Assembly (NCBI GenBank): GCA_022828085.1
Contig: JAJEIY010000001.1
Span: 35,180-99,179, forward strand
Length of the DNA stretch: 64,000 nt
Direction of reading: 5' to 3'
Source of the DNA: Acidobacteriota bacterium
GTDB taxonomy: Bacteria; Acidobacteriota; Vicinamibacteria; Marinacidobacterales; Marinacidobacteraceae
Part shown: positions 9,049 through 61,511 of the stretch, one piece after another
How positions within the stretch are numbered: position 1 is the first letter of the stretch
Layout: each line of letters opens with the position of its first letter
Program-made: the position numbers and the translations under genes
The notes under the pieces: model-generated
Database searches by the model: none
What the model was told of the DNA's origin: nothing
What the model saw: only the letters and a program-made list of their open reading frames with translations

Positions 9049-10462
9049 ATGGTGCGGCGGGTCGCTCCGCGATGAGGTGTCCGATCGAGTTGGCGTAGTA
9101 GTCGACGAAGTGGCGGCGCGGCTCGAGGATCCGTAGGCGCCCCTTGTCGGCCTTCACCATCTGCCGTTGAATCAGGAGTTGGACTCCGAGTTCTACTGCC
9201 GGCTCCCAGTCTTCCCGGGGGATGTCGGGCTCGCCGAGGCGGGCCGCCAGCGTCTCCAGGATCTCGAAGGCGGCCGCCCGCGCCTCGGTCTTCGTGACGC
9301 CTTGATCGCCCCGGTCCCGAATGACCGTGGCCATCAGCGGTACCGGGAGCACCGGCATGATGTCCGCGATGCGCCGCATGAGGTCGTCGGCCAGCACCCC
9401 CACCTCGGCGAAGCGTTCCTCGCGGTCGACCGCCCGCGGGTCGAAGTCCCGACTCCGTAGCCACTCCCGGAGCGAGACCGGTGCGCCCACGCTGAGGGTC
9501 GCATGACCGAAGGGCTTCCAACGGCGGTTGAGCCGTAGCCAGAACTGGTGGCCCACGAACGCCGCGGTCGCTCGCCAGGACCCGAACCGCGTCGCCCGTT
9601 TGCCGCTGGCCTTCATGATCTGGAGGTTCTTGTCCTCGATGACCCGGTCGTAGTTCACCGCCACGGGCACGAACGCCACGTCGCGGCCCGTTTCGGGGTC
9701 GAAGGACCGCACCGCGTAGTCGAGGAGACCGAGACGCGGCCTCCTGAGCTTCCCGTCTTCCGAGAAGCGTCCCTCGATGAAGAACGCCTGCGGCACGCCG
9801 GCGCCGACGGCGGTCTTCACGTGAGCGGCCAGCACGGCGCGGTAGAGGGGACTCCCGGATCCACGGCGGACGAAGAAGCCGCCGAGGGCGCGGAGGAGGC
9901 CCTCGAGAGGCCAGTAGCGCGCCCATTCGCCCACCGCGAAGGAAAGGATGGCCCGGTCCGCGAGCGAGGTGGCCGCGATCACGTAGTCGAGGTTGCTGCG
10001 GTGGTTGAGGACGAAGACCGGGGTGGAGGTCCGGGCGGCCCGCACGATCGCCCCTTCGTCCACGTAACGGACCCGCACGCGGAAGAGATTCAGCATGATC
10101 CGCTTCACCGGGCCGTGAATGACCCGGAAGTAGAGGCCGGCGCTGAGCGAGGGAACGATCTCCTGGGCGTAACTGCGTGCCTCCGCGAGGGCGTCGCACT
10201 GGTCGGCTTCGCTCCGCTCCGTCTCCTTGAGGATCGCGTCCTGCACGAGCGGGTCCACCATCAGCAGGTCGGCCGTGCTGGTCGGCTTCAGGAGCTGGAA
10301 GGCGGACGGCTGGATCGCGAGCCGGCCCTGCGCCTCGTGGAAGGCGTGCGCGTTGCGCCGCTCCCGGCGCCGGCGCCAGAGCGGCCGGACGACCAGTCCG
10401 TAGAGGCACCCCGCCACCAGCAGCGCGAAGACGGGAAGCGGAACGGAGATGGATTCGAACAC
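9047..10462 (-). CDS. Glycerol-3-phosphate / lysophospholipid acyltransferase (PlsB-like GPAT family)
   Basis: The acyltransferase H(X)4D motif VLNHRSNLDY is present in a PlsB-like domain. The GTG start at 10462 is preferred because the upstream ATG at 10597 would overlap proS by 115 bp. Confidence 0.65.
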   Translation of the reverse strand: MFESISVPLPVFALLVAGCLYGLVVRPLWRRRRERRNAHAFHEAQGRLAIQPSAFQLLKPTSTADLLMVDPLVQDAILKETERSEADQCDALAEARSYAQEIVPSLSAGLYFRVIHGPVKRIMLNLFRVRVRYVDEGAIVRAARTSTPVFVLNHRSNLDYVIAATSLADRAILSFAVGEWARYWPLEGLLRALGGFFVRRGSGSPLYRAVLAAHVKTAVGAGVPQAFFIEGRFSEDGKLRRPRLGLLDYAVRSFDPETGRDVAFVPVAVNYDRVIEDKNLQIMKASGKRATRFGSWRATAAFVGHQFWLRLNRRWKPFGHATLSVGAPVSLREWLRSRDFDPRAVDREERFAEVGVLADDLMRRIADIMPVLPVPLMATVIRDRGDQGVTKTEARAAAFEILETLAARLGEPDIPREDWEPAVELGVQLLIQRQMVKADKGRLRILEPRRHFVDYYANSIGHLIAERPAAP

Positions 10463-10481
10463 GGCCTTCCGCCCCCGCCCG

Positions 10482-12239
10482 TCAGCCGAATTCCGGGACC
10501 CGGACGGCCTCCTCGATGCGGTCCAGGAGTTCCGTCCGGCGCGCGGTGAGGGCTTCGGCGAGGCTCTCCAGCGGCACGATTGCGGACGCGTCCTCACCCC
10601 GGATGCGAACCTCCGCTCCGCCGCGGCCCAGCGAGCGCCCCGAGATCACCACCCGCAGGGGGATGCCGATGAGGTCGGCGTCCGCGAACTTCACCCCCGC
10701 CCGCTCGTCCCGGTCGTCGAGCAGGACTTCGAGCCCGGCGTCCTGGAGTTCGTCGTGCAGTCGTTCCGCTGCCGCACCCGCCTGGTCCTCCGGCGCGCGC
10801 CCGGTCAGCGGAATCAGGTGGACGTCGTACGGGGACACGCTCATCGGCCAGCGGAGGCCGTTCTCGTCGTGGTGCTCTTCCGCCACGCAGGCGAGGAGCC
10901 GGCCCGAGCCGATGCCGTAGGAACCCATCCAGATGGGCCGCTCGGCGCCCTCGTCGTCGAGGAAGCGGGCGCCGGCGGCGTCGCCGTAGCGGGTGCCGAG
11001 CTGGAAGATGTTGCCGACCTCCACGCCCCGCGACGTGCGAAGCGCCTCCCCGCAGTCCGCGCAGGCGTGCCCGTCGTCCGCCACCGCGATGTCGGTAACC
11101 AGACCCGGGTCGTAGTCCCGCCCCGCGTTCACGTTCCGGAAGTGGACGTCGCGCTCGTTCGCGCCGGCCACCAGGTTCGGCGACGCCGGAATCGAGTCAT
11201 CGACCACCACGGTGCCCGTGGTCAAGCCGATCGGCGAGGCGTATCCCGGCGTGGCGCCGGCGTTCAGGATCGCCTCGTCCTCCGCGGGACGGAGCCACGA
11301 GGCGCCGACCGCGTTCGCGAGCTTGGTTTCGTTGACGTCCATGTCGCCGCGGATGATCGCGACCACGAGCTCCTCCCGGGCGCCGCCGTCGAGCCCCGCC
11401 GTGAGGAACACCGCCTTCGCCGTGCGGGCGGCCGGAATCTCCAGGAACGCGCTGAGTTCGTCGATGGTGCGGGCGCCCGGGGTATCGACCCGCTCGAGGG
11501 GCAGCGGGGCCTCCGGCTCCGCCGGGGTCTTGGCGAAGCGGGCGATCTGGCGGTTCGCCGAGTAGCCGCAGGCGTCGCAGAGGACCAGGGTGTCCTCGCC
11601 CACCGGCGTCAGGTACATGAACTCGTGCGCCTGGCTGCCGCCCATCATGCCGACGTCGGAGCCGACGGCGATCGTGGGCAGCCCGCAGCGCCAGAAGATG
11701 CGGAAGTAGGCCTCGTAGTGGGCGCGGTACTGGCGCTCGAGTCCCGCGGCGTCATGGTCGAGGGTGTAGGAGTCCTTCATGGTGAACTCGCGCACCCGGA
11801 TCAGTCCCGCCCGGGGCCGTGGATCGTCCCGGAACTTGGTCTGGATGTGGTAGACGAGCTGGGGGAGCTGCCGGTGGGAGCGGATCTCGCTCCGGCAGAG
11901 GTCGGCCACGACCTCTTCGTGGGTCATGGCGAGGACGAGATCGCTGTTCTTGCGGTCCTTGAACCGCGCCATCTCCGGCCCGACGGCGTCGTAGCGTCCC
12001 GACCGGCGCCAGATCTCGGCCGGATGGACGACCGGCATGGTCATCTCCTGGCCGCCGATCCGGTTCATTTCCTCCCGCAGGATGTCCTCGATGCGGGTGA
12101 TCGAGCGGTGCGCCAGCGGCAGGTAGGAATAAAGACCCTGGCCGAGCTGCCGGATGAAGCCCGCGCGGAGCAGCATCCGGTGGCTCTCGGCCTCGATTCC
12201 GGCGGGGGCCTCGCGCAGGGTGAGACCGAAGTGGTGGGA
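10482..12239 (-). CDS. proS: Proline--tRNA ligase (bacterial type)
   Basis: The protein runs from MRLSHHFGLTLREAPAGIEAESHRMLLRAGFIRQLGQGLYSYLPL to the C-terminus. It has class II aaRS motifs plus insertion/editing and anticodon-binding domains, and is about 585 aa long. The upstream part of the track ORF is a frame artefact. Confidence 0.92.
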   Translation of the reverse strand, partial: SHHFGLTLREAPAGIEAESHRMLLRAGFIRQLGQGLYSYLPLAHRSITRIEDILREEMNRIGGQEMTMPVVHPAEIWRRSGRYDAVGPEMARFKDRKNSDLVLAMTHEEVVADLCRSEIRSHRQLPQLVYHIQTKFRDDPRPRAGLIRVREFTMKDSYTLDHDAAGLERQYRAHYEAYFRIFWRCGLPTIAVGSDVGMMGGSQAHEFMYLTPVGEDTLVLCDACGYSANRQIARFAKTPAEPEAPLPLERVDTPGARTIDELSAFLEIPAARTAKAVFLTAGLDGGAREELVVAIIRGDMDVNETKLANAVGASWLRPAEDEAILNAGATPGYASPIGLTTGTVVVDDSIPASPNLVAGANERDVHFRNVNAGRDYDPGLVTDIAVADDGHACADCGEALRTSRGVEVGNIFQLGTRYGDAAGARFLDDEGAERPIWMGSYGIGSGRLLACVAEEHHDENGLRWPMSVSPYDVHLIPLTGRAPEDQAGAAAERLHDELQDAGLEVLLDDRDERAGVKFADADLIGIPLRVVISGRSLGRGGAEVRIRGEDASAIVPLESLAEALTARRTELLDRIEEAVRVPEFG

Positions 12240-19018: not shown

Positions 19019-19573
19019 TCAGTACCTGATGTCGGTCCGGCCGACCGTCATGCCGATGTTGCCGACCCGGCGGCCCATCGTGTAGTGCTCGCCGCTCCCG
19101 GCGGTCATCCCGAAGAACTCCACGGAAGGCACGATCAGGCGGCCACCGTCGTCAACCGCCCCCTCGACAGCGGTCGTCGCCACCACTTCCGCGATGAAAA
19201 GCTTCCGCACGGGCGGGACCTCAAGGGAAGCGATGGTGCGACACTCGCAGTGGATGGGGGACTCCTCCACGGTGGGCGCCGCGACCACGGACGCCGCGCC
19301 ACGGGTCAGGCCCGAGAGTTCGAACTTGTCGGCGACCCGGCTGGAGTTCATGTCCACGGTGTCGAACGCTTCGATCATGGAGGTCAGCGGGACGTTCAGC
19401 ACGAACTCGTCGTGGAGTTCGAGGAGTTCCCGCGCCTGATGCTCGAACCCCGCGCTCACCCCGATCTGGGGCGGGTCGCCGTTCACGACGAACGTCCAGA
19501 GCACCGAGACCTCGTCCGGGTCGCCGGGCCGGCCGTTCACGGTGAGCAGGATCGCCGGGCAGGGCGGGATCAT
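19019..19573 (-). CDS. Flavin reductase-like (FMN-binding split-barrel) domain protein
   Basis: The C-terminal 184 aa of the track ORF, from [43 protein letters not shown] onward, resemble flavin-reductase family proteins. The long upstream extension is antisense to the neighbouring beta-lactamase-like gene. Confidence 0.65.
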
Positions 19574-19846
19574 CGGGCCGGGCTCCGCCAGCGAGCGGCG
19601 CGGACCGGTGAGCGGCGGAGGGTTGGCCGGAGGCTCCATCACGCCCGGCGAGGCGCCTGTTCCCGCCCGCTCGCCGGGCCCGCATCCCCAGACCGCGGCG
19701 ATCGCTGCCGCCGCCGGTGCGTTTGCGAGAATCCGTCTTCGCGACCAGCCGGGCATGACGCCGCCGGACGATACCGCAGGTCTCGCACACCCGCGGGACC
19801 GGAAACGGGCGGACAGTGCAATGATCCGCCGCCTCGGGAGAAGGCC

Positions 19847-22828: not shown

Positions 22829-24031
22829 ATGAGAGTTTCCCGACGCGCCTTGCTGGGGTCAGCGCTCGCGCCCGCGGCGCTGGCGTGGGCCCCAGCCGCG
22901 CGCGCCGCGGCGCAGACCGCCGCCCGCCATTCCAGTTTCGATCCGTGGATCGAGATCCGGCCCGACCACGTGCGGCACAACGTCCGAGAGGTGAGCCGCC
23001 TCGTCGAGGGCCGCCCCATCCTGGCGGTCATCAAGAACAACGCCTACGGGATGGGCCTCAACAACATGGCGCGGATCCTGGAATCGGAGACCGCCGTAAT
23101 CGGCATGGCGGTCGTGAAGCTGAGCGAGGCCCTCGAGCTCCGCGACGCCGGGATCGCCAAGCCGGTTCTCCTGATGGGGCCTTTCGACGACGCCGACCTC
23201 GAAGAGGCGGTGATGCGCGGCATCACGCCGATGGTCTATACGCAGGTGGGCGACGCGCTCGACCGGCTGGCGGCGCGGCGGCAGTCGGCGGTCCCGGTGC
23301 AGGTCTGCGTCGACACCGGGATGGGCCGCGTCGGCATCTCGCACCGGCGCGCGGCCGGACTCATCGCCGATCTCGCCGGGCGCGACGGGGTGGACCTCGC
23401 CGGCACCATGACCACGCTGAACGAAGACCCCGAGTTCGAGAAGCTGCAACTCCGGCGGTTCCGGGAGGTCGAACAAATACTCGCCGCGAGCGGGATCGCC
23501 ATGGGCAGGCGGCACGCGGCTTCGAGCTACGGCCTGTTCGACAACCCGCCGGCCTACCTCGATGCGGTCCGGCCCGGCATGGCGCTCTTCGGTCAGTACT
23601 CGACCCAGCGGTTCCGTGAGCTGGATCTGCTCGACCTGCGACCGTCCATGAGCCTGAAGGCGCGGGTGGCGCTCGTGAAACGCCTGGAAGCGGGCGACAC
23701 CGCCGGTTACGAGGCGGCCTACCGGGCGGACCGGGACGTCTGGATCGCGACCGTCCCCGCGGGTCACGTAGACGGGGTTCCGCGGATCGCGGCCAACGGC
23801 GGGTGGGTGAGGATCCGCGACACGCGCTACCCGATCATCGCCAGCGTTTCCGCAAGCCACACGATCGTGGAGATCGGGCCGGAAAAGACCGTGGAGGCGG
23901 GTGACGTCGCCACCTATTTCGACTGGCGGGACGGTTCGCGGCCCGAGGACGCGAGCGCGGCTTCCGGCGCTTCGGTCTACGACCTCGTCATGCACCTGAA
24001 CCCCACGCTGCCGCGGCGACTCGTCTCCTGA
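22829..24031 (+). CDS. alr: Alanine racemase with twin-arginine (Tat) signal peptide
   Basis: MRVSRRALLGSALAPAALAWAPAARAAAQ is a Tat signal. The PLP-lysine motif AVIKNNAYGMG (cf. VVKANAYGHG) and an Alr fold give about 400 aa. Confidence 0.8.
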   Translation: MRVSRRALLGSALAPAALAWAPAARAAAQTAARHSSFDPWIEIRPDHVRHNVREVSRLVEGRPILAVIKNNAYGMGLNNMARILESETAVIGMAVVKLSEALELRDAGIAKPVLLMGPFDDADLEEAVMRGITPMVYTQVGDALDRLAARRQSAVPVQVCVDTGMGRVGISHRRAAGLIADLAGRDGVDLAGTMTTLNEDPEFEKLQLRRFREVEQILAASGIAMGRRHAASSYGLFDNPPAYLDAVRPGMALFGQYSTQRFRELDLLDLRPSMSLKARVALVKRLEAGDTAGYEAAYRADRDVWIATVPAGHVDGVPRIAANGGWVRIRDTRYPIIASVSASHTIVEIGPEKTVEAGDVATYFDWRDGSRPEDASAASGASVYDLVMHLNPTLPRRLVS

Positions 24032-38450: not shown

Positions 38451-39800
38451 TCACACCGCCTCCGAAGGCCGGTAGAAGTTGAAGTTCGCGACCCGGAGCG
38501 CCGGCATCAGGTTGCCGTTCAGGCCCGAGGACCCGAAGCTCGCCGCGTTGTAGGGACGTGACGCGTCCTCGATGTTGTTTGCGAACTCGTCGAGCCGCAG
38601 CGAATACCAGGCGTTTTCGAGCGGCCCGGCGAGCTGGCCGTCCTCGATCCGGAAGAGACCGTTCCGCGTCATCCCGTTGACATGCGGCGGATCGATGGTC
38701 CGGAGCATGGTGTTCCAGTTCTGGGTCATCAGGATCCCCCGGTCCACGCCCGCGATCACGTCTTCGAGCGACTTCGACGCACCGTCCCCCACCAGGTGGA
38801 CCGCGGGACCGTTCTCCCCGCCCGGCACGTTGCGGAGCACGCCTTCCTCGACCCAGACCCGTTCCCCGAGCGGCATGCCGCCGGGACCGTAGGGGCTCCC
38901 CATGATCTGCGGATGGCCGGGTTGGGTGCTGAGACTCAGGTGTTCGCTCGCCACCCGGGCGCCCGCCTCGGACGGGGTCCCCCAGGCGCCCACGGTGCGC
39001 GCCGACCCGCTCCAGAGCCGCATCAGGAGCCCGATGAAAGAGGCAGCCGCCGACGGCTCGAGCACGACCGTGTGCGGCCCCATCTCGAACGGCTGCGGGT
39101 CCACCGAACCGAGCGCCTTCCGGGTCGCGACGTCGGTGATCCCGGGGATGTCCAGATCGGCGAAGCGCCGCCGGTCCCCGACCGCCGCCCAGCCGGAACC
39201 GACACGGCTCGAATCGCGCCCGGTGGTGGCGTCGGAACGCACGGTGACCGCGTACCCGGTCTTGGTCGCCCGCCGGTAGAACCAGGCGCCGGCGCTGTTC
39301 GCGTGCGCCTCCAGCGTGTCGTCCACGTGGAAGTAGCCCGAGCCGTTCAGCCCCTCGGCTTGCAGGCGCTCGATCACCCCGGCCACGGGCTGGTGTCGCT
39401 CCTCGTCGGTGAGCGCCGCGGTCGCCTCGTCGAAACCCGGGATTTCCGGGTACTCCTCGGGACCATGGAGCGGCCGGTGGGACCCGTTCGGGGCGGCCGC
39501 CCGGGCGATCGCCTCCGCGCGCGCCACCGCATCGCGGATCCCCGCCGGGTCGAGCTGATTCGTGATCGCGGCCCCTTCCCGGTTGCCGAAGGCCACGTGC
39601 ACCTGGAGCGGGTGGCAGGGCATCACCACCGTGTCGTCCCGGATGTAGCTGTTCGAGAAGCGGATGACCTTGGTGGATCCGCAGACGACCTCCCGGTTCA
39701 CCTCGTGGTACCAGGCCATCGTGAGTTCGACCTCGTCCGCGGTGGCCGCCTCGAACGCGGTGTCGAAAATGCCGCGGACCTGCTCTTCAGTGAGGATCAA
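38451..39800 (-). CDS. pmbA: TldD/PmbA family metallopeptidase (PmbA/TldE-like partner), no signal peptide
   Basis: TldD/PmbA-family homology runs from LILTEEQVRGIFDTAFEAATADEVELTMAWYHEVN to the C-terminus. The inferred TTG start overlaps the tldD stop as TTGA. The upstream part of the track ORF is antisense/frame junk. Confidence 0.65.
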   Translation of the reverse strand: MILTEEQVRGIFDTAFEAATADEVELTMAWYHEVNREVVCGSTKVIRFSNSYIRDDTVVMPCHPLQVHVAFGNREGAAITNQLDPAGIRDAVARAEAIARAAAPNGSHRPLHGPEEYPEIPGFDEATAALTDEERHQPVAGVIERLQAEGLNGSGYFHVDDTLEAHANSAGAWFYRRATKTGYAVTVRSDATTGRDSSRVGSGWAAVGDRRRFADLDIPGITDVATRKALGSVDPQPFEMGPHTVVLEPSAAASFIGLLMRLWSGSARTVGAWGTPSEAGARVASEHLSLSTQPGHPQIMGSPYGPGGMPLGERVWVEEGVLRNVPGGENGPAVHLVGDGASKSLEDVIAGVDRGILMTQNWNTMLRTIDPPHVNGMTRNGLFRIEDGQLAGPLENAWYSLRLDEFANNIEDASRPYNAASFGSSGLNGNLMPALRVANFNFYRPSEAV

Positions 39801-41416
39801 CTCGCCGGCCCTCCCACGTTCAGGTTCCGGAACCGCGCCCAGGGCGCCCCGTGGGTGTTGTGGTTCCGCTGGGTCGGCTGCCCGATGTCGTCCGAATCGA
39901 GCGCCGCCGGCTCCCAGGACGCCGGGTCCGTGACCGTCTCCAGCCGGTGCCAGAGCTCGCTCGGGTTCTTGCCGTAGTAGTGGGCGCCCCGGAGCATCCG
40001 GGTCGTCCGGCCGTTCTCGATCTCCCAGACCGCGTTCCCGGTGTAGGTGTGGTAGCGCCGCTGGTAGTCCTGGACGATCCGGCTCGAGAACCCGCGGAAG
40101 AGGAGCCCGCGCCGGGTGTCGGCGATGAGTTCCTCCGGTGAGGGAGCGTCCTGGCCACCCGGTTCGAGGCTCAGGTTCGGCATCCGCCCCTGCGGCACCC
40201 GGTCCCACGACTCGGTCATGCAGCAGCCGCGGCTCGCCTCTTCACCCACGTAGGTGGCGAACTCGCGGGTGGTCTGGAAACCCACCAGCTTCCCCTCCCG
40301 CACCACGTCCCATTCCTGCGTCTTGACCCCTTCGTCGTCATAGCCGCAGGTGGAACGGAGCATCGGGCGGCTGCGGTCGCCCACGAAGTTCATGACCGGG
40401 GAGCCGAACTCGTAGCTCCCCATGTCCTCGGCGGCGAGGAAGGTGCTGCCCGCGAAGTTCGTCTCCACCAGCACCGTCCGGTTGAGTTCGGTCGGATGTC
40501 CGATCGTCTCGTGCTCGAAGAGGCAGATGTTCTGCGGGTCCATGACCACGTCCAGCTGGCCGCTGAAGTCGATGATCGGGGCTTTCGCCTTCTCCACCGC
40601 CTCGGCGGCGATCCGCTCGGCGTGGCTGGGCAAGTCGAGCCCGCGGATGTACTCGTAGCCGATGTTCAGCGGGTTGACGAAGAACCGCCGCTGCGCGGTG
40701 ACCCCATCCACCCGGGCTCGGGCGAAGAAGGACCCGTCCGAGCGGACGAGGCGCTGCTGGATCTCCGCGCCCTCCGAGTTTGCGTAGAACTTGTTCTCGT
40801 CCCAGAAGTCGAGCCAGGAGAAGGCCCGGTCCGTCTGGGGATTCTTCCGGACCTCTTCATTGATCCGGAGCAGGAGAGCGACCTTCTCGTCGAGAGGCAC
40901 CGTGAACGGGTCCTCCTCGTGGGGCGTGACCCAGGTGTCCACATGCACGGGCTCCGGGACCAGCCGGATCGGCTCGGGCACCGTCAGCGCGGCCTTCTCC
41001 GCCAGGTCGCACGCCAGTCCGGCCACCGCGACCGCCTCGTCCTCGCTGAGCACGGGGCTGGCGGCAAATCCCCAGGCGCCGTTCTTGAGGACCCGGACGT
41101 TGAGCCCGATGTCCACCTTCTCCAGCACGTGCTCGGGCGAGGACCCGTAGTGCCACTCGCCGGGGACGCCCTTGATCGCCTGGTCGTCGGCGGCGATCGT
41201 CTGGATGAGGTTCCGGACCACCCGCACATCCGCGAACGTCGAGCCGCGGCTGGTGGTCACGCGGAGGGCCGCGTCCGCGAGCCCCTTCTTCCACTCGACG
41301 TCCTCGATGAGTTCGTGGGCCGGACGGGGGGCGGCGCAACGTGTGAGCCCGAAGGGCAGGACGACCGCGGCCGTGCCCCCGCAAAGCCGCACGAACTGGC
41401 GACGGGTGATGTCCAT
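39797..41416 (-). CDS. tldD: TldD family metallopeptidase with twin-arginine signal peptide
   Basis: MDITRRQFVRLCGGTAAVVLPFGLTRC is a Tat signal. A TldD-like domain of 539 aa follows, with the HExxxH-like region FEHETIGH. Confidence 0.8.
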   Translation of the reverse strand: MDITRRQFVRLCGGTAAVVLPFGLTRCAAPRPAHELIEDVEWKKGLADAALRVTTSRGSTFADVRVVRNLIQTIAADDQAIKGVPGEWHYGSSPEHVLEKVDIGLNVRVLKNGAWGFAASPVLSEDEAVAVAGLACDLAEKAALTVPEPIRLVPEPVHVDTWVTPHEEDPFTVPLDEKVALLLRINEEVRKNPQTDRAFSWLDFWDENKFYANSEGAEIQQRLVRSDGSFFARARVDGVTAQRRFFVNPLNIGYEYIRGLDLPSHAERIAAEAVEKAKAPIIDFSGQLDVVMDPQNICLFEHETIGHPTELNRTVLVETNFAGSTFLAAEDMGSYEFGSPVMNFVGDRSRPMLRSTCGYDDEGVKTQEWDVVREGKLVGFQTTREFATYVGEEASRGCCMTESWDRVPQGRMPNLSLEPGGQDAPSPEELIADTRRGLLFRGFSSRIVQDYQRRYHTYTGNAVWEIENGRTTRMLRGAHYYGKNPSELWHRLETVTDPASWEPAALDSDDIGQPTQRNHNTHGAPWARFRNLNVGGPAS

Positions 41417-54892: not shown

Positions 54893-56452
54893 CTACCGAT
54901 CCTCGTCCGAAATCCGTGACTGCCAGCGCTCGATCTGCCGGGCCGCGGCGTCCCGGCCGCCGAGGCCGAAGGCCACCGCGAACGCCACCGCCACCGCGCC
55001 CAGCACGATGCCGAAGGCCAGCTCGATGATCTCGTTGGCAATGCCCATCTGGCGGAGGCCCACCGCGGTCGTGAACAGCAGGATGCCGACCCGCGCCGCC
55101 AGCGCGAGCAGCCGCGCCTGCGGGACCCGGCTGGCGCTGATGGCGCGCGCCGACAGGTTCGCGAGGAAGACCCCGAAGCCCAGGAACACCACCCCCAGCA
55201 GGAACTGGCCGGTGAACTGGAGGAGCCGGGTGAGCAGCCCCGCCGCGTTGTCGAACCCCACCAGGCTCGCCGCCTCGATGCTCGCGAACAGCATGATGAG
55301 CGCGAGCACCACCACCCGCACGACGTTCGAGGCCGTGTGGTCGTCGGCCGTCGCGGTGCTGGTCAGCCCGATCCGGGTCAGGACGTGGTCGAAGCCGGCC
55401 TGCCGGAGGAGGTCGCAGGTCAGGTTCGCGATGACGCGTCCCACCACGTAGGCGGTGAGCAGGAGCGCCACCGCGACCAGCAGGAGCGGCAACGCGCTGA
55501 AGACCCGCCCGAGCATGTCGCTCGCCGGCCGCGTGATCACGTCGAGGCTCAGCCGGTCGAGCCCGGTCAGGATCACCGGGAAGAGCACCAGCAGGTAGGT
55601 GATCCCGCCGAGCAGCGCCGACGGGGTCCGCGAACCCAGGATCCGCCGGAGCCCGAGCCGCTCCGTCGCCCGGTCGAGCCCCACCGCGGCGAGCAGGTTC
55701 GTGACGACCGCCTTCGCGATCCGGGCAATGAACCACCCGACCAGGAAGATGATGATGGCGCCGAGCGCGTTCGGCAGGAAGGTGATGACCTGATTCACGA
55801 CCGTCTCGATCGGGAGCAGCACCCCCTCCAGGTCGAGCGCCGCCAGGATAGGCGGCAGGAACAGGAGGAGGACGACCCAGTAGACGATCTCGGGCACCGC
55901 GTGCGAGACCCGGCCCGGCGGCCGCTCGCTCCCCCGGTCGAGCCGCTCGTCCACGCCGGCCGCCTCGAGGGCGACCCGCACCGCGCGGCGGAGCACGGCG
56001 GCGAGGACCCAGGCCGCAAGGAGCAGCACGAGCGCCCGCCCCAACTGGGCGACCATCCCCATGATGCGGCCCAGCAGGGTCCCGCCGATGCCTCCGATCG
56101 CGGAGACGTCCACGACCGACGCGACCGCGGCCACGACCAGGATCAGGAGCCCCCAGAAGACGATCCGGCCCGCGATCGCCTCGACGTCCTGCTGGGAGGC
56201 CCGTTCGGGCCCGAGCGCCAGCCGGACGCCGCCGGCGACCCGGGAGGCGATCCGCTCGCGAAGACCCAGCCGGAAAAGGGCCCGGCGGAGCAGGATGACC
56301 ACCACCAGCGCGAAACCGAAAGCGGCCACCAGGACGCCCAGCGCGATCACCAGGTGACCCACGGTCGTGTCGAAGATCGGGGGCATCCGGCGCAGCAGGT
56401 CCGACAGGGCTTCGAGCATTTGCGGGATGGTAGTGAATCCGTCGTCCGCCAT
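54893..56452 (-). CDS. Polytopic membrane protein with conserved TM-helix repeats (MscS-like N-terminal region; no MscS beta-domain seen)
   Basis: The 519-aa protein has repeated hydrophobic helix pairs. No catalytic motif was recognised. Confidence 0.45.
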   Translation of the reverse strand: MADDGFTTIPQMLEALSDLLRRMPPIFDTTVGHLVIALGVLVAAFGFALVVVILLRRALFRLGLRERIASRVAGGVRLALGPERASQQDVEAIAGRIVFWGLLILVVAAVASVVDVSAIGGIGGTLLGRIMGMVAQLGRALVLLLAAWVLAAVLRRAVRVALEAAGVDERLDRGSERPPGRVSHAVPEIVYWVVLLLFLPPILAALDLEGVLLPIETVVNQVITFLPNALGAIIIFLVGWFIARIAKAVVTNLLAAVGLDRATERLGLRRILGSRTPSALLGGITYLLVLFPVILTGLDRLSLDVITRPASDMLGRVFSALPLLLVAVALLLTAYVVGRVIANLTCDLLRQAGFDHVLTRIGLTSTATADDHTASNVVRVVVLALIMLFASIEAASLVGFDNAAGLLTRLLQFTGQFLLGVVFLGFGVFLANLSARAISASRVPQARLLALAARVGILLFTTAVGLRQMGIANEIIELAFGIVLGAVAVAFAVAFGLGGRDAAARQIERWQSRISDEDR

Positions 56453-56583
56453 CCGGCGGCGGGCCCAAAGAAAGGCTGCCGGACCGGCGGCTACCCCCGA
56501 TCCCGGTGGTAAATTCCGCCGAATTCAGGGCCCCGCCCGCCGATTCCGGTCTGGATTCCGGGTTCCCTCAAAGGAGTTGAATC

Positions 56584-57888
56584 ATGCGGCGCAGGCGGTT
56601 TCTGAGTTCGGTGGGCGAAGCCGGCGGCGCCGCGCTCGTCACCACCCTGTTCGGCCCGGAAACGATCCGGAACGTCGAGGCCGCGGCGCAGCGGACCGCG
56701 GGAACAAGCCCGGAAGACCTCGCGCGCGACGAGAACTACTGGAGCGAGATCCAGCAGGCGTTCAGCGTCACGCGTTCGATCATCAACCTGAACAACGGTG
56801 GGGTCTGCCCCTCACCCCGCATGGTCACCGAGGCGTTCGTCCGCTACATCTGGGAATCGGAGGAGGCCCCCGTCTACACGATGTGGCAGATCCTCCAGCC
56901 CCGGAAGGAAAACGTCCGCCAGCGGCTCGCGGTGCTGTTCGGATGCGACCCCGAGGAGGTCGCGCTCGTCCGCAACACCTCGGAAGCCATGGAGATCCTG
57001 CTGCTGGGCATGGATCTCCAGTCCGGCGACGAGATCCTCACCACCACCCAGGACTACGGTCGGATGCTCACCACCATCCGCCAGCGGACGCGCCGCGAGG
57101 GCATCGATCTCAAGTTCATCCAGATCCCGACCCCGGCCGAGACCGACGAGGAGGTCGTGGAGGGGTTCCGCGGCGCCATCACCGACAAGACCCGGATCAT
57201 CCTGATGTCCCACCAGATCAACCTCACCGGGCAGATCCTGCCGGTGAAGGCGGTCTGCGACCTGGCCCGCGAACGCGGCATCGAGGTCATGGTGGACGGG
57301 GCGCACTCGTTCGCCCAGTTCGACTTCAAGCTCGAAGACATCGGCTGCGACTACTTCGGCACCAGCCTTCACAAGTGGCTCCTCGCCCCCAAGGGCACCG
57401 GGATGCTCTACGTGAAGAAGGACAAGATCCCGAAGATCTGGCCCATGATGCCCGCCCCCGAGCGCATGGACGAGGACATCCGCAAGTACGAGGAGATCGG
57501 CACCCATCCCGCCGCCAACTTCGTGGCGGTCGGAGAAGCGATCACCTTCCACAACACGGTGGGCGCGAAGAACAAGGAGGCCCGGCTCCGCTATCTGAAG
57601 GACACCTGGGCCGATCGCCTGTCAGCACTCCCCAATACCGAACTCCACACTTCGCGCAACCCCAGGTTGAGCTGCGCCATCGGCAACATCAACCTGACGA
57701 CCGTCGAACCGCCCCGGCTCCGCGACTACTTCTGGGAGAAGCACCACATCATCGTCACTCCCATCATGCACGAGGAGTTCCAGGGACTCCGGATCACTCC
57801 GAACCTCTACACGACCATGGCCGAGCTCGACTACTTCTGCAACGTGTACGAGGACATCGCGCGGAACGGCCTTCCCAAGTCGGCCTGA
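56584..57888 (+). CDS. Class V aminotransferase / cysteine-desulfurase-like PLP enzyme with twin-arginine signal
   Basis: MRRRRFLSSVGEAGGAALVTTLFGP is a Tat signal. The PLP-lysine motif is SLHKWLLAPKGTG, and the protein is 434 aa. A strong RBS AAAGGAG lies 8 nt upstream. Confidence 0.8.
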   Translation: MRRRRFLSSVGEAGGAALVTTLFGPETIRNVEAAAQRTAGTSPEDLARDENYWSEIQQAFSVTRSIINLNNGGVCPSPRMVTEAFVRYIWESEEAPVYTMWQILQPRKENVRQRLAVLFGCDPEEVALVRNTSEAMEILLLGMDLQSGDEILTTTQDYGRMLTTIRQRTRREGIDLKFIQIPTPAETDEEVVEGFRGAITDKTRIILMSHQINLTGQILPVKAVCDLARERGIEVMVDGAHSFAQFDFKLEDIGCDYFGTSLHKWLLAPKGTGMLYVKKDKIPKIWPMMPAPERMDEDIRKYEEIGTHPAANFVAVGEAITFHNTVGAKNKEARLRYLKDTWADRLSALPNTELHTSRNPRLSCAIGNINLTTVEPPRLRDYFWEKHHIIVTPIMHEEFQGLRITPNLYTTMAELDYFCNVYEDIARNGLPKSA

Positions 57889-57943
57889 TTCTCATGAACG
57901 TCGGTCCCGGTCCGGCGCGCGGCACGCCGGTGCGGCTGTTCTC

Positions 57944-59446
57944 ATGACCCACACCGCCGTGCATCCCGGCGCCGCTCCCGCGTTCCGCCAGTACGACCAC
58001 AACCCGACGTTCTACGACGAGATGTTCGAAGGCGACGGGTCTCCGCGCCAGCACTGCTCCGATTTCTTCGAGACCATCCGGGAGACGCCGCCGGATGACC
58101 TGCGGCAGATTCAGGAGCGGGTCACGCGGTCGTTCCTTCACGAGGGGATCACCTTCACCGTCTACGGCGACGAACAGACCATCGAGCGCGTCTTCCCGAT
58201 CGACTGCCTCCCCCGGATCGTGCGCGGAGACGAATGGGACGACGTCGCCCGCGGGCTGGAACAGCGGCTCCGGGCGCTCAACCTGTTCCTCCACGACATC
58301 TACCACCGGGGCCACATCATCCGCGACGGGGTGATCCCCGCCGAACTGGTCTACGGCAACAAGCACTACCGGATCGAGATGCGGGGCGTCGAGGTCCCCC
58401 ACGGCGCCTACGTCTCGGTCTGCGGCACCGACCTCGTGCGCACCCACGACGGGTTCGCGGTGCTCGAGGACAACCTCCGGGTGCCGTCCGGCGTCAGCTA
58501 CATGCTCGCCTGCCGGGATGCGATCAAGCGCAGCATGCCGCGCCTGTTCCGGCGTTCCCGGGTCCGGGACGTGGAGCAGTACAGCCGGCTGCTGCTCGAG
58601 ACGCTCCGGTCGCTCGCGCCGCCGCAGGTGAGCGATCCGAGCATCGTCCTGCTCACCCCCGGCGTCTACAACTCGGCCTACTACGAGCACGCCTTCCTCG
58701 CCCGCCAGATGGGCATCGAACTCGTCGAGGGACGCGACCTGCTCGTCCACAACCGGCGGGTGTACATGCGGACGACCGCCGGGCTCCGGCAGGTGGACGT
58801 GATCTACCGGCGCATCGACGACGACTTCATCGACCCGGTCACGTTCCGCGAGGACTCGGTGCTCGGAGTGCCCGGGCTCTTCCACGCGTACCGGGCGGGC
58901 CGGGTGGTGATCGCGAACGCCCCCGGGACCGGCGTGGCCGACGACAAGGCCGTCTATGCCTACGTGCCGCGCATCATCAAGTACTACCTGGGCGAGGAAT
59001 CGCTCATCAAGCCCATTCCAACCACTCTTTGCCGGGAGCGGGAGGGCCTTGCCTACACCCTCGCCAATCTGGACAAGCTGGTCGTGAAGATGGTGGGTGA
59101 GTCCGGCGGCTACGGGATGCTGGTCGGTCCTCACGCCTCGGCAACCGAACAAAAGGAGTTCGCGGCGGCGCTCCGGGCGAACCCGGACGACTACATCTCC
59201 CAGCCGACGCTCGCCCTGTCCCGGGCCCCCTGCCTTATCGGGGCCCATATCGAGCCGCGGCACGTGGACCTGCGGCCGTTCATCCTGCAGTCGGAACGGA
59301 CCGAGATCGTGCCCGGCGGCCTCTGCCGGGTCGCGCTCAAGAAGGGCAGCCTGGTGGTGAATTCCAGCCAGGGCGGCGGCTCCAAGGACGCCTGGATCGT
59401 GGATGTTCCGGAGGCGGCCGGGCCTGCTGCCGCCGCAAGCGCCTGA
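57944..59446 (+). CDS. Circularly permuted ATP-grasp type 2 protein (DUF404/DUF407)
   Basis: The 500-aa protein has conserved blocks (VIANAPGTGVADDKAVYAYVP, SGGYGMLVGPHA) characteristic of the cp-ATP-grasp family. It is the first gene of the cpATP-grasp / alpha-E / transglutaminase triad. Confidence 0.85.
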   Translation: MTHTAVHPGAAPAFRQYDHNPTFYDEMFEGDGSPRQHCSDFFETIRETPPDDLRQIQERVTRSFLHEGITFTVYGDEQTIERVFPIDCLPRIVRGDEWDDVARGLEQRLRALNLFLHDIYHRGHIIRDGVIPAELVYGNKHYRIEMRGVEVPHGAYVSVCGTDLVRTHDGFAVLEDNLRVPSGVSYMLACRDAIKRSMPRLFRRSRVRDVEQYSRLLLETLRSLAPPQVSDPSIVLLTPGVYNSAYYEHAFLARQMGIELVEGRDLLVHNRRVYMRTTAGLRQVDVIYRRIDDDFIDPVTFREDSVLGVPGLFHAYRAGRVVIANAPGTGVADDKAVYAYVPRIIKYYLGEESLIKPIPTTLCREREGLAYTLANLDKLVVKMVGESGGYGMLVGPHASATEQKEFAAALRANPDDYISQPTLALSRAPCLIGAHIEPRHVDLRPFILQSERTEIVPGGLCRVALKKGSLVVNSSQGGGSKDAWIVDVPEAAGPAAAASA

Positions 59447-59448
59447 TC

Positions 59449-60423
59449 ATGCTCGCGCGCGTCGCCGACAACCTCTACTGGATGAGCCGGTACCTGGAGC
59501 GGTCGGACCAGACGATCCGTCTCCTGGGGGTCCAGGTGCGCTCGGTGACCGACAACACCTCCGCCCAGGTGGCTGCCGGCTGGACCCGGCTCTTCCGCAG
59601 CCTGAAGGTGGCGCCTCCCGGGGGCGACCCGCTCTACGGCGATCAGCTCGAGGACTCGTTCCTGCTCGCCGACGCCTACACGCTCGCGGACTTCATGAGT
59701 TTCGAGCGCGACAACCCCGGCTCGATGGTGTCCCTGTGGGGCATGTCGCGGGAGAACGCCCGGCAGGCGCGGCAGGAAATCACCCAGGAGATGTGGGGTC
59801 AGCTCAACCGAACCTACCTCTCGCTCCGCGACACGCAACTGCACTTCTTCTGGAACAAGGAACCCGAGAACTTCTACAAGGAGACATCCGCGCAGATCTA
59901 CCTCTTCCGGGGAGTGACCGACAACGGCCTGCGGCACGGACTTGCCTGGGACTTCATCCGGCTCGGGCGGTTCATGGAGCGCATCCAGGTGACCACCGAG
60001 ATTCTCGACAACTACCGCCCGGCCCTCGACGACGAGGACACCGACCTGGACTGGTCGCTCCTGCTCCGCAACTGCGCCAGTTTCGAGCCCTACTGCCGCC
60101 ACTACACGCCCGAAATCGATCCCTGGAAGGTGATGACCTTCCTGATCCACGAACCGGAGTCACCCCACACCCTCCGCTTCGCCGCCGAGGAGATCAGAAA
60201 CGGCCTGGGACGCATCGATCCCGCCGGCGGCGCCCGCCACCCCCTGCAGGCCGCGCACCGGATCGCCGGGCAGCTTCGGGCGCTGCTCGTCTACGGATCC
60301 CAGGACCGGGAGGACCTTGCGGGCACGCTTGCCGAGGTGCGCCGGCTCTCCCGCGGGCTCCACGACGAGATCTACCGCCGCTACATCTTCTATCCCGCGG
60401 ACCAGGCCCTGCCGGGAAGATAA
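59449..60423 (+). CDS. Alpha-E domain protein (DUF403)
   Basis: The 324-aa protein has the characteristic start MLARVADNLYWMSRYLERSDQTIRLL. Its start lies 3 bp after the ATP-grasp stop. Confidence 0.85.
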   Translation: MLARVADNLYWMSRYLERSDQTIRLLGVQVRSVTDNTSAQVAAGWTRLFRSLKVAPPGGDPLYGDQLEDSFLLADAYTLADFMSFERDNPGSMVSLWGMSRENARQARQEITQEMWGQLNRTYLSLRDTQLHFFWNKEPENFYKETSAQIYLFRGVTDNGLRHGLAWDFIRLGRFMERIQVTTEILDNYRPALDDEDTDLDWSLLLRNCASFEPYCRHYTPEIDPWKVMTFLIHEPESPHTLRFAAEEIRNGLGRIDPAGGARHPLQAAHRIAGQLRALLVYGSQDREDLAGTLAEVRRLSRGLHDEIYRRYIFYPADQALPGR

Positions 60424-60443
60424 GGGCCCGCGCGACCAGCCAC

Positions 60444-61364
60444 GTGACCTCCGAAGACACCCTCTACCGCATCGAACACGTGACCCGGTTCCGGTATTCG
60501 GAACCGATCCGGGAAGCCGTCGTCACGCTCTACCTCGAGCCCCGCAGCGACGCTTCCCAGCATCTCAGGTCCTTCCAGATCCTCACGGATCCCGGCGCCG
60601 AACTCGGCAGCTACGAGGACTGCTTCGGAAACGCGGTGCACTTCTTCGACGTGCCCGGCGAGCACGAACAACTGACGGTCACCTCCCGGTCCCTCGTTGC
60701 CCTCCACGCCAGCGATCCCGATGAAGCCAGGGGATCGGCCTGGGACGATCTGCAGGAACTGCGGACCCCTTCGACGTGGCATCTGCTCCACCCCACCCCG
60801 CTGACCCGGCCGACCGCCGCGCTGGACGCCTTCGTCGCCCGGCACGGGATCGAGCGCGGCGAAACGCCGCTGGCGTCCGTTCGCGAACTGACTTCCCGCA
60901 TTCACGAAGCGCTCGACTTCGAGCGGGGACGAACGCGGGTGGACTCACCGATCGACGATGCCCTGGCGGCGGAAAGCGGGGTCTGTCAGGACTTCTCCCA
61001 CATCATGCTCGCCATCGTGCGGGGCTGGGGGATCCCCGCTCAATACGTCTCGGGGTACCTCTTCCCGGTTCACAAGGGACGGGAGCAGGCCATGGCGCAG
61101 GCCAGCCACGCCTGGATCGAGTGCCTCCTCCCGGGCCTCGGCTGGGTGGGCGCCGACCCCACCAACAACACGGTTTCTCCGAGACATCACGTCCGGGTCG
61201 CGAGCGGGCGGGACTATCGTGACGTTCCACCCACCCGCGGCACCTTTCGGGGATCCGCTCAGCAGGAGCTGGAGGTCGGCGTCAAGATTTCGATGGTGGA
61301 TCCGGAACCCTCGGGCGGTCCCGCGCCCCCCGCAGACGTGCAATCCCCAACCCGCGGGCGGTGA
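60444..61364 (+). CDS. Transglutaminase-like family protein (N-terminal transglutaminase-N domain plus cysteine-protease core)
   Basis: The protein starts at GTG (VTSEDTLYRIEHVTRFRYSEP). The catalytic Cys motif GVCQDFSH and downstream His/Asp residues give about 306 aa. The long upstream track extension is junk. Confidence 0.8.
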   Translation: MTSEDTLYRIEHVTRFRYSEPIREAVVTLYLEPRSDASQHLRSFQILTDPGAELGSYEDCFGNAVHFFDVPGEHEQLTVTSRSLVALHASDPDEARGSAWDDLQELRTPSTWHLLHPTPLTRPTAALDAFVARHGIERGETPLASVRELTSRIHEALDFERGRTRVDSPIDDALAAESGVCQDFSHIMLAIVRGWGIPAQYVSGYLFPVHKGREQAMAQASHAWIECLLPGLGWVGADPTNNTVSPRHHVRVASGRDYRDVPPTRGTFRGSAQQELEVGVKISMVDPEPSGGPAPPADVQSPTRGR

Positions 61365-61440
61365 CGGACCGCGGAGGAACCCGCCTTTGTGTGTTGCGAT
61401 TCGCCCGGAAAACGCCGAGTATTCCTCTGTCGCGCGGCGC

Positions 61441-61474
61441 GTCCGCCGGGTTTCTGACCGGTTTCCCGGCGGAC
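61441..61474. promoter_or_regulatory. Perfect 10-bp inverted repeat GTCCGCCGGG-N14-CCCGGCGGAC upstream of the rsbW-like gene
   Basis: The repeat lies 40 bp upstream of the 61512 start, has no U-run, and a TTGACG hexamer lies just downstream. Confidence 0.35.
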
Positions 61475-61511
61475 GTGGGTTCCACCACAGGCTGCTAAAG
61501 TTGACGCCCCG

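What the first reader, a model, noticed from the sequence alone, without database searches (positions are those of the whole stretch)
56584..57888. Class V aminotransferase/desulfurase-like PLP enzyme carrying a twin-arginine signal
MRRRRFLSSVGEAGGAALVTTLF precedes a fold that is normally cytoplasmic (IscS/isopenicillin-N-epimerase-like). Together with the Tat-Alr and Tat-TldD, this gives three cofactor- or metal-containing enzymes apparently exported folded. The gene is co-directional with the peptide-ligase triad and 55 bp upstream of it. A periplasmic epimerase or transaminase could supply or modify the triad's substrate.
Basis: partly seen in the sequence, partly recalled or inferred. Interest (0 to 1): 0.5.

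Follow-up and report, generated by a model that had tools for sequence, protein, structure and literature searches.

The report
Tat-exported PvdN-like PLP enzyme
This gene encodes a vitamin-B6 (PLP) enzyme with a conserved twin-arginine export signal, so it is almost certainly sent folded to the periplasm like its closest characterised relative PvdN, but it belongs to a widespread uncharacterised family and shows no conserved link to the peptide-ligase genes next to it.

Summary
The ORF (56584-57888, +, 434 aa) is real. It starts at the first start codon after an in-frame stop and has a good Shine-Dalgarno site. It is a class-V-fold PLP enzyme with the PLP lysine K264.

The RRxFL leader is not chance. 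It is present in 118 of the 120 best homologues and in 83 of 83 species loci from at least five phyla. It is also present in most relatives at 32-51% identity.

The closest characterised relative by family model, sequence and fold is PvdN of Pseudomonas. PvdN is an experimentally proven Tat-exported periplasmic PLP enzyme, so the export principle is already known. The protein scores far below the PvdN family cut-off and lacks the SufS-type catalytic cysteine loop. It is therefore neither PvdN nor a cysteine desulfurase, and its reaction is unknown.

The proposed link to the ATP-grasp/Alpha-E/transglutaminase triad is not supported. Adjacency occurs only in 4 close relatives (at least 84% identity). 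In one of them, 800 bp of repeats separate the genes. It is absent in 79 other loci.

Orthologues elsewhere sit between gcvPA and gcvPB (18 loci) or just downstream of a Sec-exported amidohydrolase (24 loci).

Verdict: a new member of a known kind, of moderate-to-low interest.

The parts
56570..56576 (+). Shine-Dalgarno-like AAAGGAG, 7 nt before the ATG; an in-frame TGA at 56578-56580 closes the frame upstream
   Evidence: Sequence read directly
56584..57888 (+). Whole gene: 434-aa precursor of a class-V-fold PLP enzyme (stop codon included)
56584..56682 (+). Predicted Tat signal peptide, residues 1-33. It has the n-region motif R3-R4-R5-F6-L7, a weakly hydrophobic h-region A13-P25, a c-region with R29, and V31-E32-A33 as the likely signal-peptidase site (A33-A34-A35 is an alternative).
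   Evidence: Motif conserved in 118/120 homologues and 83/83 loci. Rule-based analysis. pLDDT below 50 for residues 1-24. The cleavage site is inferred, not measured.
56590..56604 (+). Twin-arginine core R3-R4-R5-F6-L7
   Evidence: R3, R4 and L7 are invariant and F6 nearly invariant in alignment A1.
56683..57885 (+). Predicted mature enzyme, residues 34-434, with the fold-type-I / class-V aminotransferase fold
   Evidence: Pfam Aminotran_5. AlphaFold model with a well-predicted core. Foldseek: PvdN 5i90 has TM 0.72/0.80, followed by C-DES and SufS.
57295..57297 (+). D238 in the DGAH motif, the expected partner of the PLP pyridine nitrogen
   Evidence: Invariant in A1. Aligned with the DG(A/V)(H/Q) motif of PvdN, SufS and C-DES. 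The role is inferred from the fold family.
57373..57375 (+). K264 in SLHKW, the PLP Schiff-base lysine
   Evidence: Invariant in A1. Aligned with the HK of PvdN, SufS and C-DES.
57790..57792 (+). R403 in GLRITPN, the expected binder of the substrate alpha-carboxylate
   Evidence: Invariant in A1. The role is inferred from fold-type-I enzymes in general.
57889..57943 (+). 55-bp spacer to the ATP-grasp gene; no terminator-like or promoter-like site was found
57944..61364 (+). Neighbouring triad, which is not part of the feature: CP_ATPgrasp (57944-59446), Alpha-E (59449-60423) and a transglutaminase-like gene (about 60444-61364)
   Evidence: Pfam. Adjacency is limited to 4 close relatives.

Best explanation
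The gene encodes a PLP-dependent enzyme of the class-V aminotransferase fold. It is made with a cleavable twin-arginine signal peptide of about 33 residues. The most likely course is as follows. The protein folds, probably dimerises and binds PLP at K264 in the cytoplasm. The Tat translocase then exports it in the folded state, and signal peptidase cleaves it near VEA/A. It then acts in the periplasm on an alpha-amino acid or an amino-acid moiety of a larger molecule. This is the same logic as for PvdN, its closest characterised relative. It belongs to a large, uncharacterised and mostly Tat-bearing clade found in Acidobacteriota, Verrucomicrobiota, Bacteroidota, Ignavibacteria and Fidelibacterota. 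It is not a cysteine desulfurase and not a PvdN orthologue. Its position in front of the ATP-grasp/Alpha-E/transglutaminase triad is lineage-local synteny rather than a functional coupling. Shown here: the ORF, the fold, the PLP residues, the conservation of the leader and the lack of conserved linkage. Inferred: actual export, the cleavage site, PLP loading before export, and the chemistry. The chemistry is most plausibly one that needs no co-substrate, such as a lyase, decarboxylase, aldolase or epimerase reaction.
For: - ORF and start.
- Fold and PLP residues.
- Closest family and structure is PvdN: NCBIfam NF051467 at 5.5e-44; PDB 5i90 at 1.3e-30, rising to 1.7e-44 with a profile; best TM-score.
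- PvdN and PtaA are experimentally Tat-exported with bound PLP, and a PvdN mutant of the active-site lysine is not exported (PMC6206403).
- The PvdN leader MNDRRTFLKQAGILAAGLPLLSAAQSLRA (PMC6085387) resembles the family consensus DRRxFLSxxGKGLGLAAL.
- Leader conservation: 118/120 homologues and 83/83 loci.
- Among 115 full-length representatives at 32-51% identity, 79 have RR and 6 have RK or KR.
- Signal-peptide anatomy: the h-region has a median of 16 uncharged residues and a mean Kyte-Doolittle score of about 1.35. A basic c-region residue occurs in 114/119 sequences and an AxA-like site in 96/119.
- Synonymous changes exceed non-synonymous changes in leader codons against L005 (15 vs 8) and L007 (12 vs 5), so the leader is translated.
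- Other RR-leader enzymes occur in the same window.
- No conserved triad linkage.
Against: - The generic Tat-signal HMMs (Pfam TAT_signal, TIGR01409) do not report the window's own leader. A homologue's leader reaches only 15.3 bits against a 16.7-bit cut-off.
- The window's h-region is short, at 13 uncharged residues, and is preceded by E12.
- No tatA or tatC gene was found in the 64-kb window or the fetched loci. This is uninformative because so little of the genome was examined.
- No dedicated predictor (TatP, SignalP 6, PRED-TAT) could be run.
- No experiment exists for any member of this orthologous group, and nothing was found in the literature.
- The 55-bp gap without a predicted terminator allows co-transcription with the triad in this lineage.
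- In the closest relative with substantial divergence tested (L001), leader codons show more non-synonymous than synonymous changes (13 vs 10).
Confidence: 0.75

Rival explanations
1. One reading: the enzyme is a functional partner of the adjacent ATP-grasp/Alpha-E/transglutaminase triad. In this view it supplies or modifies the triad's substrate as part of one operon.
For: The genes are co-directional, the gap is 55 bp and no terminator-like site is found. The same order is present in 4 related genomes: L001, L004, L005 and L007.
Against: All 4 of those loci are close relatives (84-97% identity). In 79 other loci with the orthologue, no triad gene lies within 10 kb (examples). In L007 the spacer has grown to about 800 bp and is filled with MITE-like repeats. 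The ATP-grasp protein has no leader and needs ATP, so it is cytoplasmic, whereas this enzyme is predicted to be periplasmic. Orthologues have other, tighter operon contexts elsewhere.
Confidence: 0.07
2. The leader is an annotation artefact. The real protein would start at an internal codon and be an ordinary cytoplasmic class-V enzyme.
For: The Tat-signal HMMs do not hit the window's leader. An in-frame GTG exists at codon 10.
Against: A strong SD sits 7 nt before ATG 56584, and none precedes the GTG. RRxFL is conserved in 83/83 loci across phyla, while the rest of the leader varies. There is an excess of synonymous changes in the leader against L005 and L007. The first internal ATG (M80) would remove invariant residues.
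Confidence: 0.03
3. It is a periplasmic cyst(e)ine-directed enzyme. It could be a cysteine desulfurase of the IscS/SufS type, or a cystine C-S lyase like C-DES that acts on oxidised cystine outside the cytoplasm.
For: SufS and C-DES are the next-best sequence and fold matches. JGI names for homologues read 'selenocysteine lyase/cysteine desulfurase'. A lyase needs no co-substrate, which suits the periplasm.
Against: The desulfurase version fails. Alignments to SufS stop before the catalytic loop. The co-linear segment here is TPIMHEEFQGLR, with no cysteine where SufS has RxGHHCA (the SufS motif is from general knowledge). The invariant C364 aligns with Ala/Ser in SufS and PvdN. No SufE or SufU-type partner gene was noted among the recurrent neighbour clusters. 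The C-DES-like lyase version is not excluded, but nothing specific supports it.
Confidence: 0.12
4. The leader is an uncleaved Tat signal-anchor. The enzyme would then stay tethered to the outer face of the inner membrane rather than being soluble in the periplasm.
For: Tat substrates with N-terminal anchors are known (PMC6085387). Here the c-region between the h-region and the VEA site is rather long, at 10 residues.
Against: The h-region is short and only weakly hydrophobic (13-16 residues, Kyte-Doolittle about 1.2-1.35). An AxA-like site is conserved in 96/119 sequences. PvdN is released as a soluble protein.
Confidence: 0.08

Closest known systems
PvdN (Pseudomonas pyoverdine-tailoring periplasmic PLP enzyme; NCBIfam NF051467; PDB 5i90/5hh9)
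   Same: It is the best family, sequence and structure match. Both have the class-V fold and share the DG(A/V)H and HKW(L) motifs. Both lack a SufS-type catalytic cysteine. Both carry an N-terminal twin-arginine leader of similar form. PvdN is proven to be exported by Tat with PLP bound.
   Different: Identity is only about 24%. The score is 150 bits against a family cut-off of 650. No pvdM/pvdO or other pyoverdine genes are nearby. The host is an acidobacterium, and such organisms are not known to make pyoverdine. The PvdN substrate, the pyoverdine glutamate side chain, is therefore not expected here.
PtaA (periplasmic transaminase A of Pseudomonas)
   Same: It is a PLP enzyme exported folded through Tat. 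It shows that periplasmic PLP chemistry is an established principle.
   Different: PtaA is described as a normal transaminase encoded elsewhere in the genome. No sequence comparison with it was made here.
Group II cysteine desulfurases (SufS/CsdA) and the cystine C-S lyase C-DES
   Same: They share the fold, the PLP lysine, the aspartate and the carboxylate-binding arginine.
   Different: They are cytoplasmic and have no leader. SufS has a catalytic cysteine loop that is absent here. Identity is about 20-23%.
Isopenicillin N epimerase CefD (the name some sources give to homologues)
   Same: Same broad class-V subfamily. JGI names several homologues this way.
   Different: No beta-lactam biosynthesis context is present. 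No model or structure for CefD was available to test. The name is an automatic transfer, not evidence.

Membership tests
Twin-arginine (Tat) signal peptide | Consensus (S/T)-R-R-x-F-L-K near the N-terminus | tested here: met
   The window has R3-R4-R5-F6-L7-S8. R, R and L are invariant and F occurs in 118/119 homologues. The motif is present in 83/83 loci.
Twin-arginine (Tat) signal peptide | Moderately hydrophobic, uncharged h-region of about 12-20 residues after the motif | tested here: met
   The window has AGGAALVTTLFGP: 13 residues with a mean Kyte-Doolittle score of 1.2. The family median is 16 residues and 1.35. The window is at the short end and has E12 just before the stretch.
Twin-arginine (Tat) signal peptide | c-region with a basic 'Sec-avoidance' residue and an A-x-A type cleavage site | tested here: met
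   The window has R29 and V31-E32-A33 (or A33-A34-A35). A basic residue occurs in 114/119 sequences and an AxA-like site in 96/119.
Twin-arginine (Tat) signal peptide | Recognition by curated Tat-signal profile models (TIGR01409, Pfam TAT_signal) | tested here: not met
   There was no hit for the window's leader. The homologue P0092 reached 15.3 bits against a cut-off of 16.7. These are short and insensitive models.
Twin-arginine (Tat) signal peptide | Tat-dependent export shown experimentally, and TatA/TatC present in the genome | not testable with these tools
   Only 64 kb of the genome is available. No tatA or tatC was found in it or in the fetched loci, which is uninformative.
Aminotransferase class V fold (Pfam PF00266) | Profile match above the gathering score, with the PLP lysine and the aspartate | tested here: met
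   The score is 135 bits against a cut-off of 21.5. K264 and D238 are invariant. The fold is confirmed by the model and Foldseek.
PvdN (NCBIfam NF051467, equivalog) | Score at or above the curated cut-off of 650 bits | tested here: not met
   The score is 150.5 bits.
PvdN (NCBIfam NF051467, equivalog) | Location in a pyoverdine (pvdMNO) gene context | tested here: not met
   The neighbours are an MS-channel-like gene, a FadB-like gene, an SNF transporter and the ATP-grasp triad. None of the recurrent neighbour clusters that were profiled in the 83 loci is a pvd gene.
Cysteine desulfurase (SufS/IscS/NifS) | Catalytic persulfide-forming cysteine in the C-terminal loop (SufS RxGHHCA) | tested here: not met
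   SufS model and PDB alignments end before the loop: TIGR01979 positions 18-341 of 403, and 1t3i up to residue 359. The co-linear segment TPIMHEEFQGLR has no cysteine. C364 aligns with Ala/Ser. The placement of the loop rests on co-linearity, not on a residue-level structural alignment.
Cysteine desulfurase (SufS/IscS/NifS) | Score above the curated cut-offs of the SufS, IscS, NifS or CsdA models | tested here: not met
   Scores are 116 bits against 475 for SufS, 74 against 548 for IscS and 76 against 531 for NifS.
CP-ATP-grasp / Alpha-E / transglutaminase operon (as an accessory member) | Conserved co-location with the triad across lineages | tested here: not met
   The triad is within 10 kb in 4 of 83 loci, all at least 84% identical. 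The spacer is expanded by repeats in L007.
Isopenicillin N epimerase (CefD) | Orthology to characterised CefD and a beta-lactam biosynthesis context | not tested
   No CefD model or structure is in the libraries used. The name appears only as a source annotation.

The most novel reading that the evidence does not exclude
This tightly conserved orthologous group shows 57-69% identity across five phyla and always carries a Tat leader. It could be a periplasmic PLP enzyme with a reaction not yet described, serving amino-acid scavenging. One possibility is that it produces or consumes glycine, given its insertion between gcvPA and gcvPB in 18 species. Another is that it processes the product of the Sec-exported amidohydrolase that precedes it in 24 species. 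Either would define a new periplasmic branch of amino-acid metabolism in abundant soil and marine bacteria.
Probability: 0.2. Interest if true: 0.55.

Novelty: new member of a known kind. Interest (0 to 1): 0.3.

Why it matters
PLP enzymes in the periplasm are rare. Only PvdN, PtaA and some racemases are characterised. This work shows that the PvdN-like fold with a Tat leader is not a Pseudomonas oddity. It forms a large clade, with 976 clusters at 50% identity at E <= 1e-30, and most of the nearest 115 full-length representatives carry RR leaders. The clade is spread over Acidobacteriota, Verrucomicrobiota, Bacteroidota and other phyla. Knowing its substrate would reveal what these abundant, poorly cultured bacteria do to amino acids outside the cytoplasm. 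For annotation of this window, the practical points are two. The gene should not be called a cysteine desulfurase or an isopenicillin N epimerase. It should also not be used to infer the function of the ATP-grasp triad.

Tried and rejected
- Tat-signal profile HMMs on the leader alone gave no hit for the window and a sub-threshold hit for a homologue. They were judged too insensitive to outweigh the conservation data.
- A search of solved structures with only the C-terminal 97 residues, meant to align the SufS cysteine loop, found nothing. A profile search was used instead.
- Rfam on the window and four gcv-context loci, looking for a glycine or other riboswitch, found only a tRNA.
- NCBIfam typing of the recurrent neighbours gave only generic superfamily hits. 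The neighbours were the amidohydrolase, a beta-lactamase-family protein, an FAD oxidoreductase and a DUF-like protein. No substrate clue emerged.
- The promoter and terminator scan of 56300-58100 found nothing.
- A search for tatA/tatC in the window and loci, by motif and by tblastn with E. coli sequences written from memory, found nothing. Too little of the genome was covered for this to be informative.
- Literature searches for this family returned nothing relevant. The terms combined isopenicillin N epimerase or class V aminotransferase with twin-arginine or periplasm. A search on the triad gave no useful paper.
- The afdb50 fold library was not available.
- The PvdN primary paper PMC5104919 is not held. 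The review PMC6206403 was used instead.

Full report
**1. Observation**

An in-frame TGA lies at 56578-56580, so ATG 56584 is the first possible start. AAAGGAG at 56570-56576 sits 7 nt upstream of it. The next gene is a circularly permuted ATP-grasp gene that starts at 57944, 55 bp downstream on the same strand. The window has 69.5% G+C. The nearest genomes are Acidobacteriota of the class Vicinamibacteria. An uncultured Acidobacteriota MAG is 97% identical and a Candidatus Marinacidobacterium MAG is 91% identical.

**2. What the protein is**

- Pfam gives Aminotran_5 at 3.6e-39 over residues 70-390.
- Among NCBIfam models the best is the pyoverdine-tailoring periplasmic protein PvdN (NF051467) at 5.5e-44. 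The score is only 150 bits against a cut-off of 650. SufS, NifS, IscS, EgtE and others score lower.
- Among solved structures PvdN (5i90, 5hh9) is also first, at 1.3e-30 with the single sequence and 1.7e-44 with a family profile. It is followed by SufS enzymes and the cystine lyase C-DES.
- An AlphaFold model built from 16 family members has a mean pLDDT of 77. The core is well predicted, residues 1-24 are below 50, and residues 61-95 are also poorly predicted.
- Foldseek places PvdN at the best TM-scores (0.72/0.80, 24% identity). C-DES and SufS follow at 0.65-0.77.
- In an alignment spanning 60-85% identity, several residues are invariant: D238 (DGAH), H241, K264 (SLHKW, the Schiff-base lysine), R403 (GLRITPN) and C364.
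- Alignments to SufS models and structures stop before the catalytic cysteine loop. The co-linear stretch here reads TPIMHEEFQGLR and contains no cysteine. SufS has RxGHHCA at that place; this motif is from general knowledge. C364 aligns with Ala or Ser in SufS and PvdN.
- The protein is therefore a PvdN/C-DES-like member of the class-V fold. It is not a persulfide-forming desulfurase, and by score and context it is not a PvdN orthologue.

**3. The leader**

- Of the 120 best database homologues (59-99% identity), 118 carry RR in the first 35 residues. The two exceptions are shortened gene calls that begin inside the leader.
- A scan of one genome per species returned 576 confirmed relatives. 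Besides those 80 scan loci they include three loci fetched earlier by exact-protein look-up. These genomes are labelled Acidobacteriota (Vicinamibacteria, Pyrinomonadaceae, Blastocatellia, Chloracidobacterium, Aminicenantia), Verrucomicrobiota (including Udaeobacter), Bacteroidota, Ignavibacteria and Fidelibacterota.
- Position by position, R, R and L are invariant and F occurs in 118 of 119 sequences. The residue after the motif is mostly S or K.
- After the motif comes an uncharged stretch with a median of 16 residues and a mean Kyte-Doolittle score of 1.35. A basic residue occurs in the c-region in 114 of 119 sequences, and an AxA-like site in 96 of 119.
- The window's own leader is at the weak end of this range. 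It has E12, then 13 uncharged residues, then R29 and V31-E32-A33.
- The rest of the leader varies freely while the motif stays fixed. Against L005 and L007 the leader codons show more synonymous than non-synonymous changes (15 vs 8 and 12 vs 5). The leader is therefore translated and under selection.
- An exhaustive HMMER search of 1.84 billion cluster representatives found 976 clusters at E <= 1e-30. Of the 115 near-full-length representatives listed (32-51% identity), 79 have RR leaders and 6 have RK or KR variants. Several of the remaining 30 are RR variants or truncated calls. The Tat leader is thus a clade-wide and probably ancestral property.
- Against this, the generic Tat-signal HMMs did not report the window's leader, and a homologue's leader scored just below threshold. 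No dedicated predictor could be run. No tat genes lie in the small amount of sequence available.

**4. Precedent**

The review PMC6206403 states that PvdN is a PLP enzyme transported by Tat as a folded protein. [quoted passage not shown] A second PLP enzyme, PtaA, is likewise exported by Tat with its cofactor. PMC6085387 lists PvdN among the validated Tat substrates, with the leader MNDRRTFLKQAGILAAGLPLLSAAQSLRA. This resembles the family consensus found here. It does not hold for the branch this protein belongs to.

**5. Relation to the triad**

The three downstream genes are a CP_ATPgrasp gene, an Alpha-E gene and a transglutaminase-like gene with the Bact_transglu_N domain. This arrangement is known from comparative genomics as a predicted peptide-ligase system (general knowledge; no useful paper was retrieved).

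- tblastn of the window's neighbours against all 83 loci finds the triad next to the orthologue only in L001, L004, L005 and L007 (84-97% identity). These loci also share the upstream MS-channel-like and FadB-like genes, so whole-region synteny is preserved among close relatives.
- In 79 loci at 69% identity or less, no triad gene lies within 10 kb.
- In L007 the spacer is about 800 bp. It consists of three copies of a 145-220-nt element with terminal inverted repeats.
- The ATP-grasp protein has no leader and needs ATP, so the two products would sit in different compartments.
- Co-transcription in this lineage cannot be excluded, because the gap is 55 bp and no terminator was found. A conserved functional coupling is not supported.

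**6. Other contexts of the orthologue**

Neighbouring ORFs in the 83 loci were clustered and profiled. Two recurrent operon-like arrangements emerged.

- In 18 loci of the Blastocatellia/Chloracidobacterium/Pyrinomonadaceae type, the gene sits between the two halves of the glycine-cleavage P protein: gcvT-gcvH-gcvPA-X-gcvPB. In several loci the gaps are as small as 11 and 17 nt (L049) or 25 and 6 nt (L070).
- In 24 Pyrinomonadaceae-type loci, an Amidohydro_3 protein of about 562 residues with a Sec-type signal peptide lies immediately upstream on the same strand. The gaps are sometimes only 5-7 nt.
- Verrucomicrobial loci share no conserved neighbour.
- Bacteroidota and Ignavibacteria loci share a secreted protein of about 300 residues, a sodium:solute-symporter-like membrane protein and a large protein. 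None of these three was assigned to a family here.
- No riboswitch was detected in the gcv-context loci, and NCBIfam gave only generic hits for the neighbours.

These contexts point vaguely to amino-acid metabolism. They do not identify the substrate.

**7. Mechanism proposed**

The precursor folds, probably dimerises (all structurally known relatives are dimers; not tested here) and binds PLP at K264 in the cytoplasm. The RRRFL motif then targets it to TatBC, and it crosses the membrane folded. Signal peptidase I cleaves after VEA (33/34) or AAA (35/36). The mature enzyme of about 400 residues works in the periplasm on a substrate with a free alpha-amino and alpha-carboxylate group, the latter bound by R403. 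Keto-acid acceptors and other co-substrates are scarce in the periplasm. A lyase, decarboxylase, aldolase or epimerase type of reaction is therefore more plausible than a transaminase cycle, although PtaA shows that the latter is possible. The chemistry is inference only.

**8. Novelty and verdict**

The principle is already established for the closest known relative, and the proposed connection to the triad fails the synteny test. This is a new, uncharacterised member of a known kind. Its residual interest lies in the size and conservation of the family and in its odd placement inside gcv operons in other lineages.

Noticed in passing
window 22829-24031 (+): An alanine racemase (Pfam Ala_racemase_N and Ala_racemase_C) carries the RR leader MRVSRRALLGSALAPAALAWAPAARAAAQ. 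It is a second PLP enzyme in this window that looks Tat-exported.
   Followed up: partly
window 39797-41416 (-): A TldD/PmbA-family metallopeptidase carries the leader MDITRRQFVRLCGGTAAVVLPFGLTRCAAP.
   Followed up: partly
window 19019-19756 (-): A flavin-reductase-like protein (Pfam Flavin_Reduct) has the N-terminus [27 protein letters not shown]. It has an RR motif followed by a possible lipobox cysteine, so it may be a Tat-exported lipoprotein.
   Followed up: no
L007 11300-12110; window about 61390-61500: A MITE-like repeat of about 145-220 nt has the terminal inverted repeats CTAGCTGCCTGTGGTGAAACCCAGG / CCCGGGTTCCACCACAGGCTGCTAG. Three copies fill the spacer between the PLP-enzyme gene and the ATP-grasp gene in the Marinacidobacterium MAG. 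The window carries one partial copy just after the transglutaminase stop, with an exact 20-mer at 61477-61496.
   Followed up: partly
L028, L031, L032, L037, L039, L042, L044, L046, L049, L052, L059, L060, L066, L070, L072, L073, L075, L078 (match at about 10001-11296 in most): In 18 species the Tat-leader orthologue is inserted between gcvPA and gcvPB of a gcvT-gcvH-gcvPA-X-gcvPB cluster. The intergenic gaps are often below 60 nt. In five of these loci a further gap of 1.2-2.2 kb lies before gcvPB. No glycine riboswitch was found.
   Followed up: partly
L010, L011, L014, L019, L021, L022, L035, L036, L041, L050, L055, L057, L062, L065, L074 and others: In 24 Pyrinomonadaceae-type loci an Amidohydro_3 protein of about 562 aa with a Sec-type signal peptide lies directly upstream and co-directional. 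The gaps are as small as 5-7 nt. This suggests a two-enzyme periplasmic operon.
   Followed up: partly
P0001: The 99%-identical database protein is labelled 'Gammaproteobacteria bacterium' by NCBI. All other close relatives and the synteny point to Vicinamibacteria (Acidobacteriota). This is probably a mis-binned or mislabelled MAG contig.
   Followed up: no
window 54893-56452 (-): The divergently transcribed upstream gene encodes a 519-aa membrane protein with three copies of the MS_channel_1st_1 helix repeat. It stays next to the PLP-enzyme gene in the four closely related genomes only.
   Followed up: no
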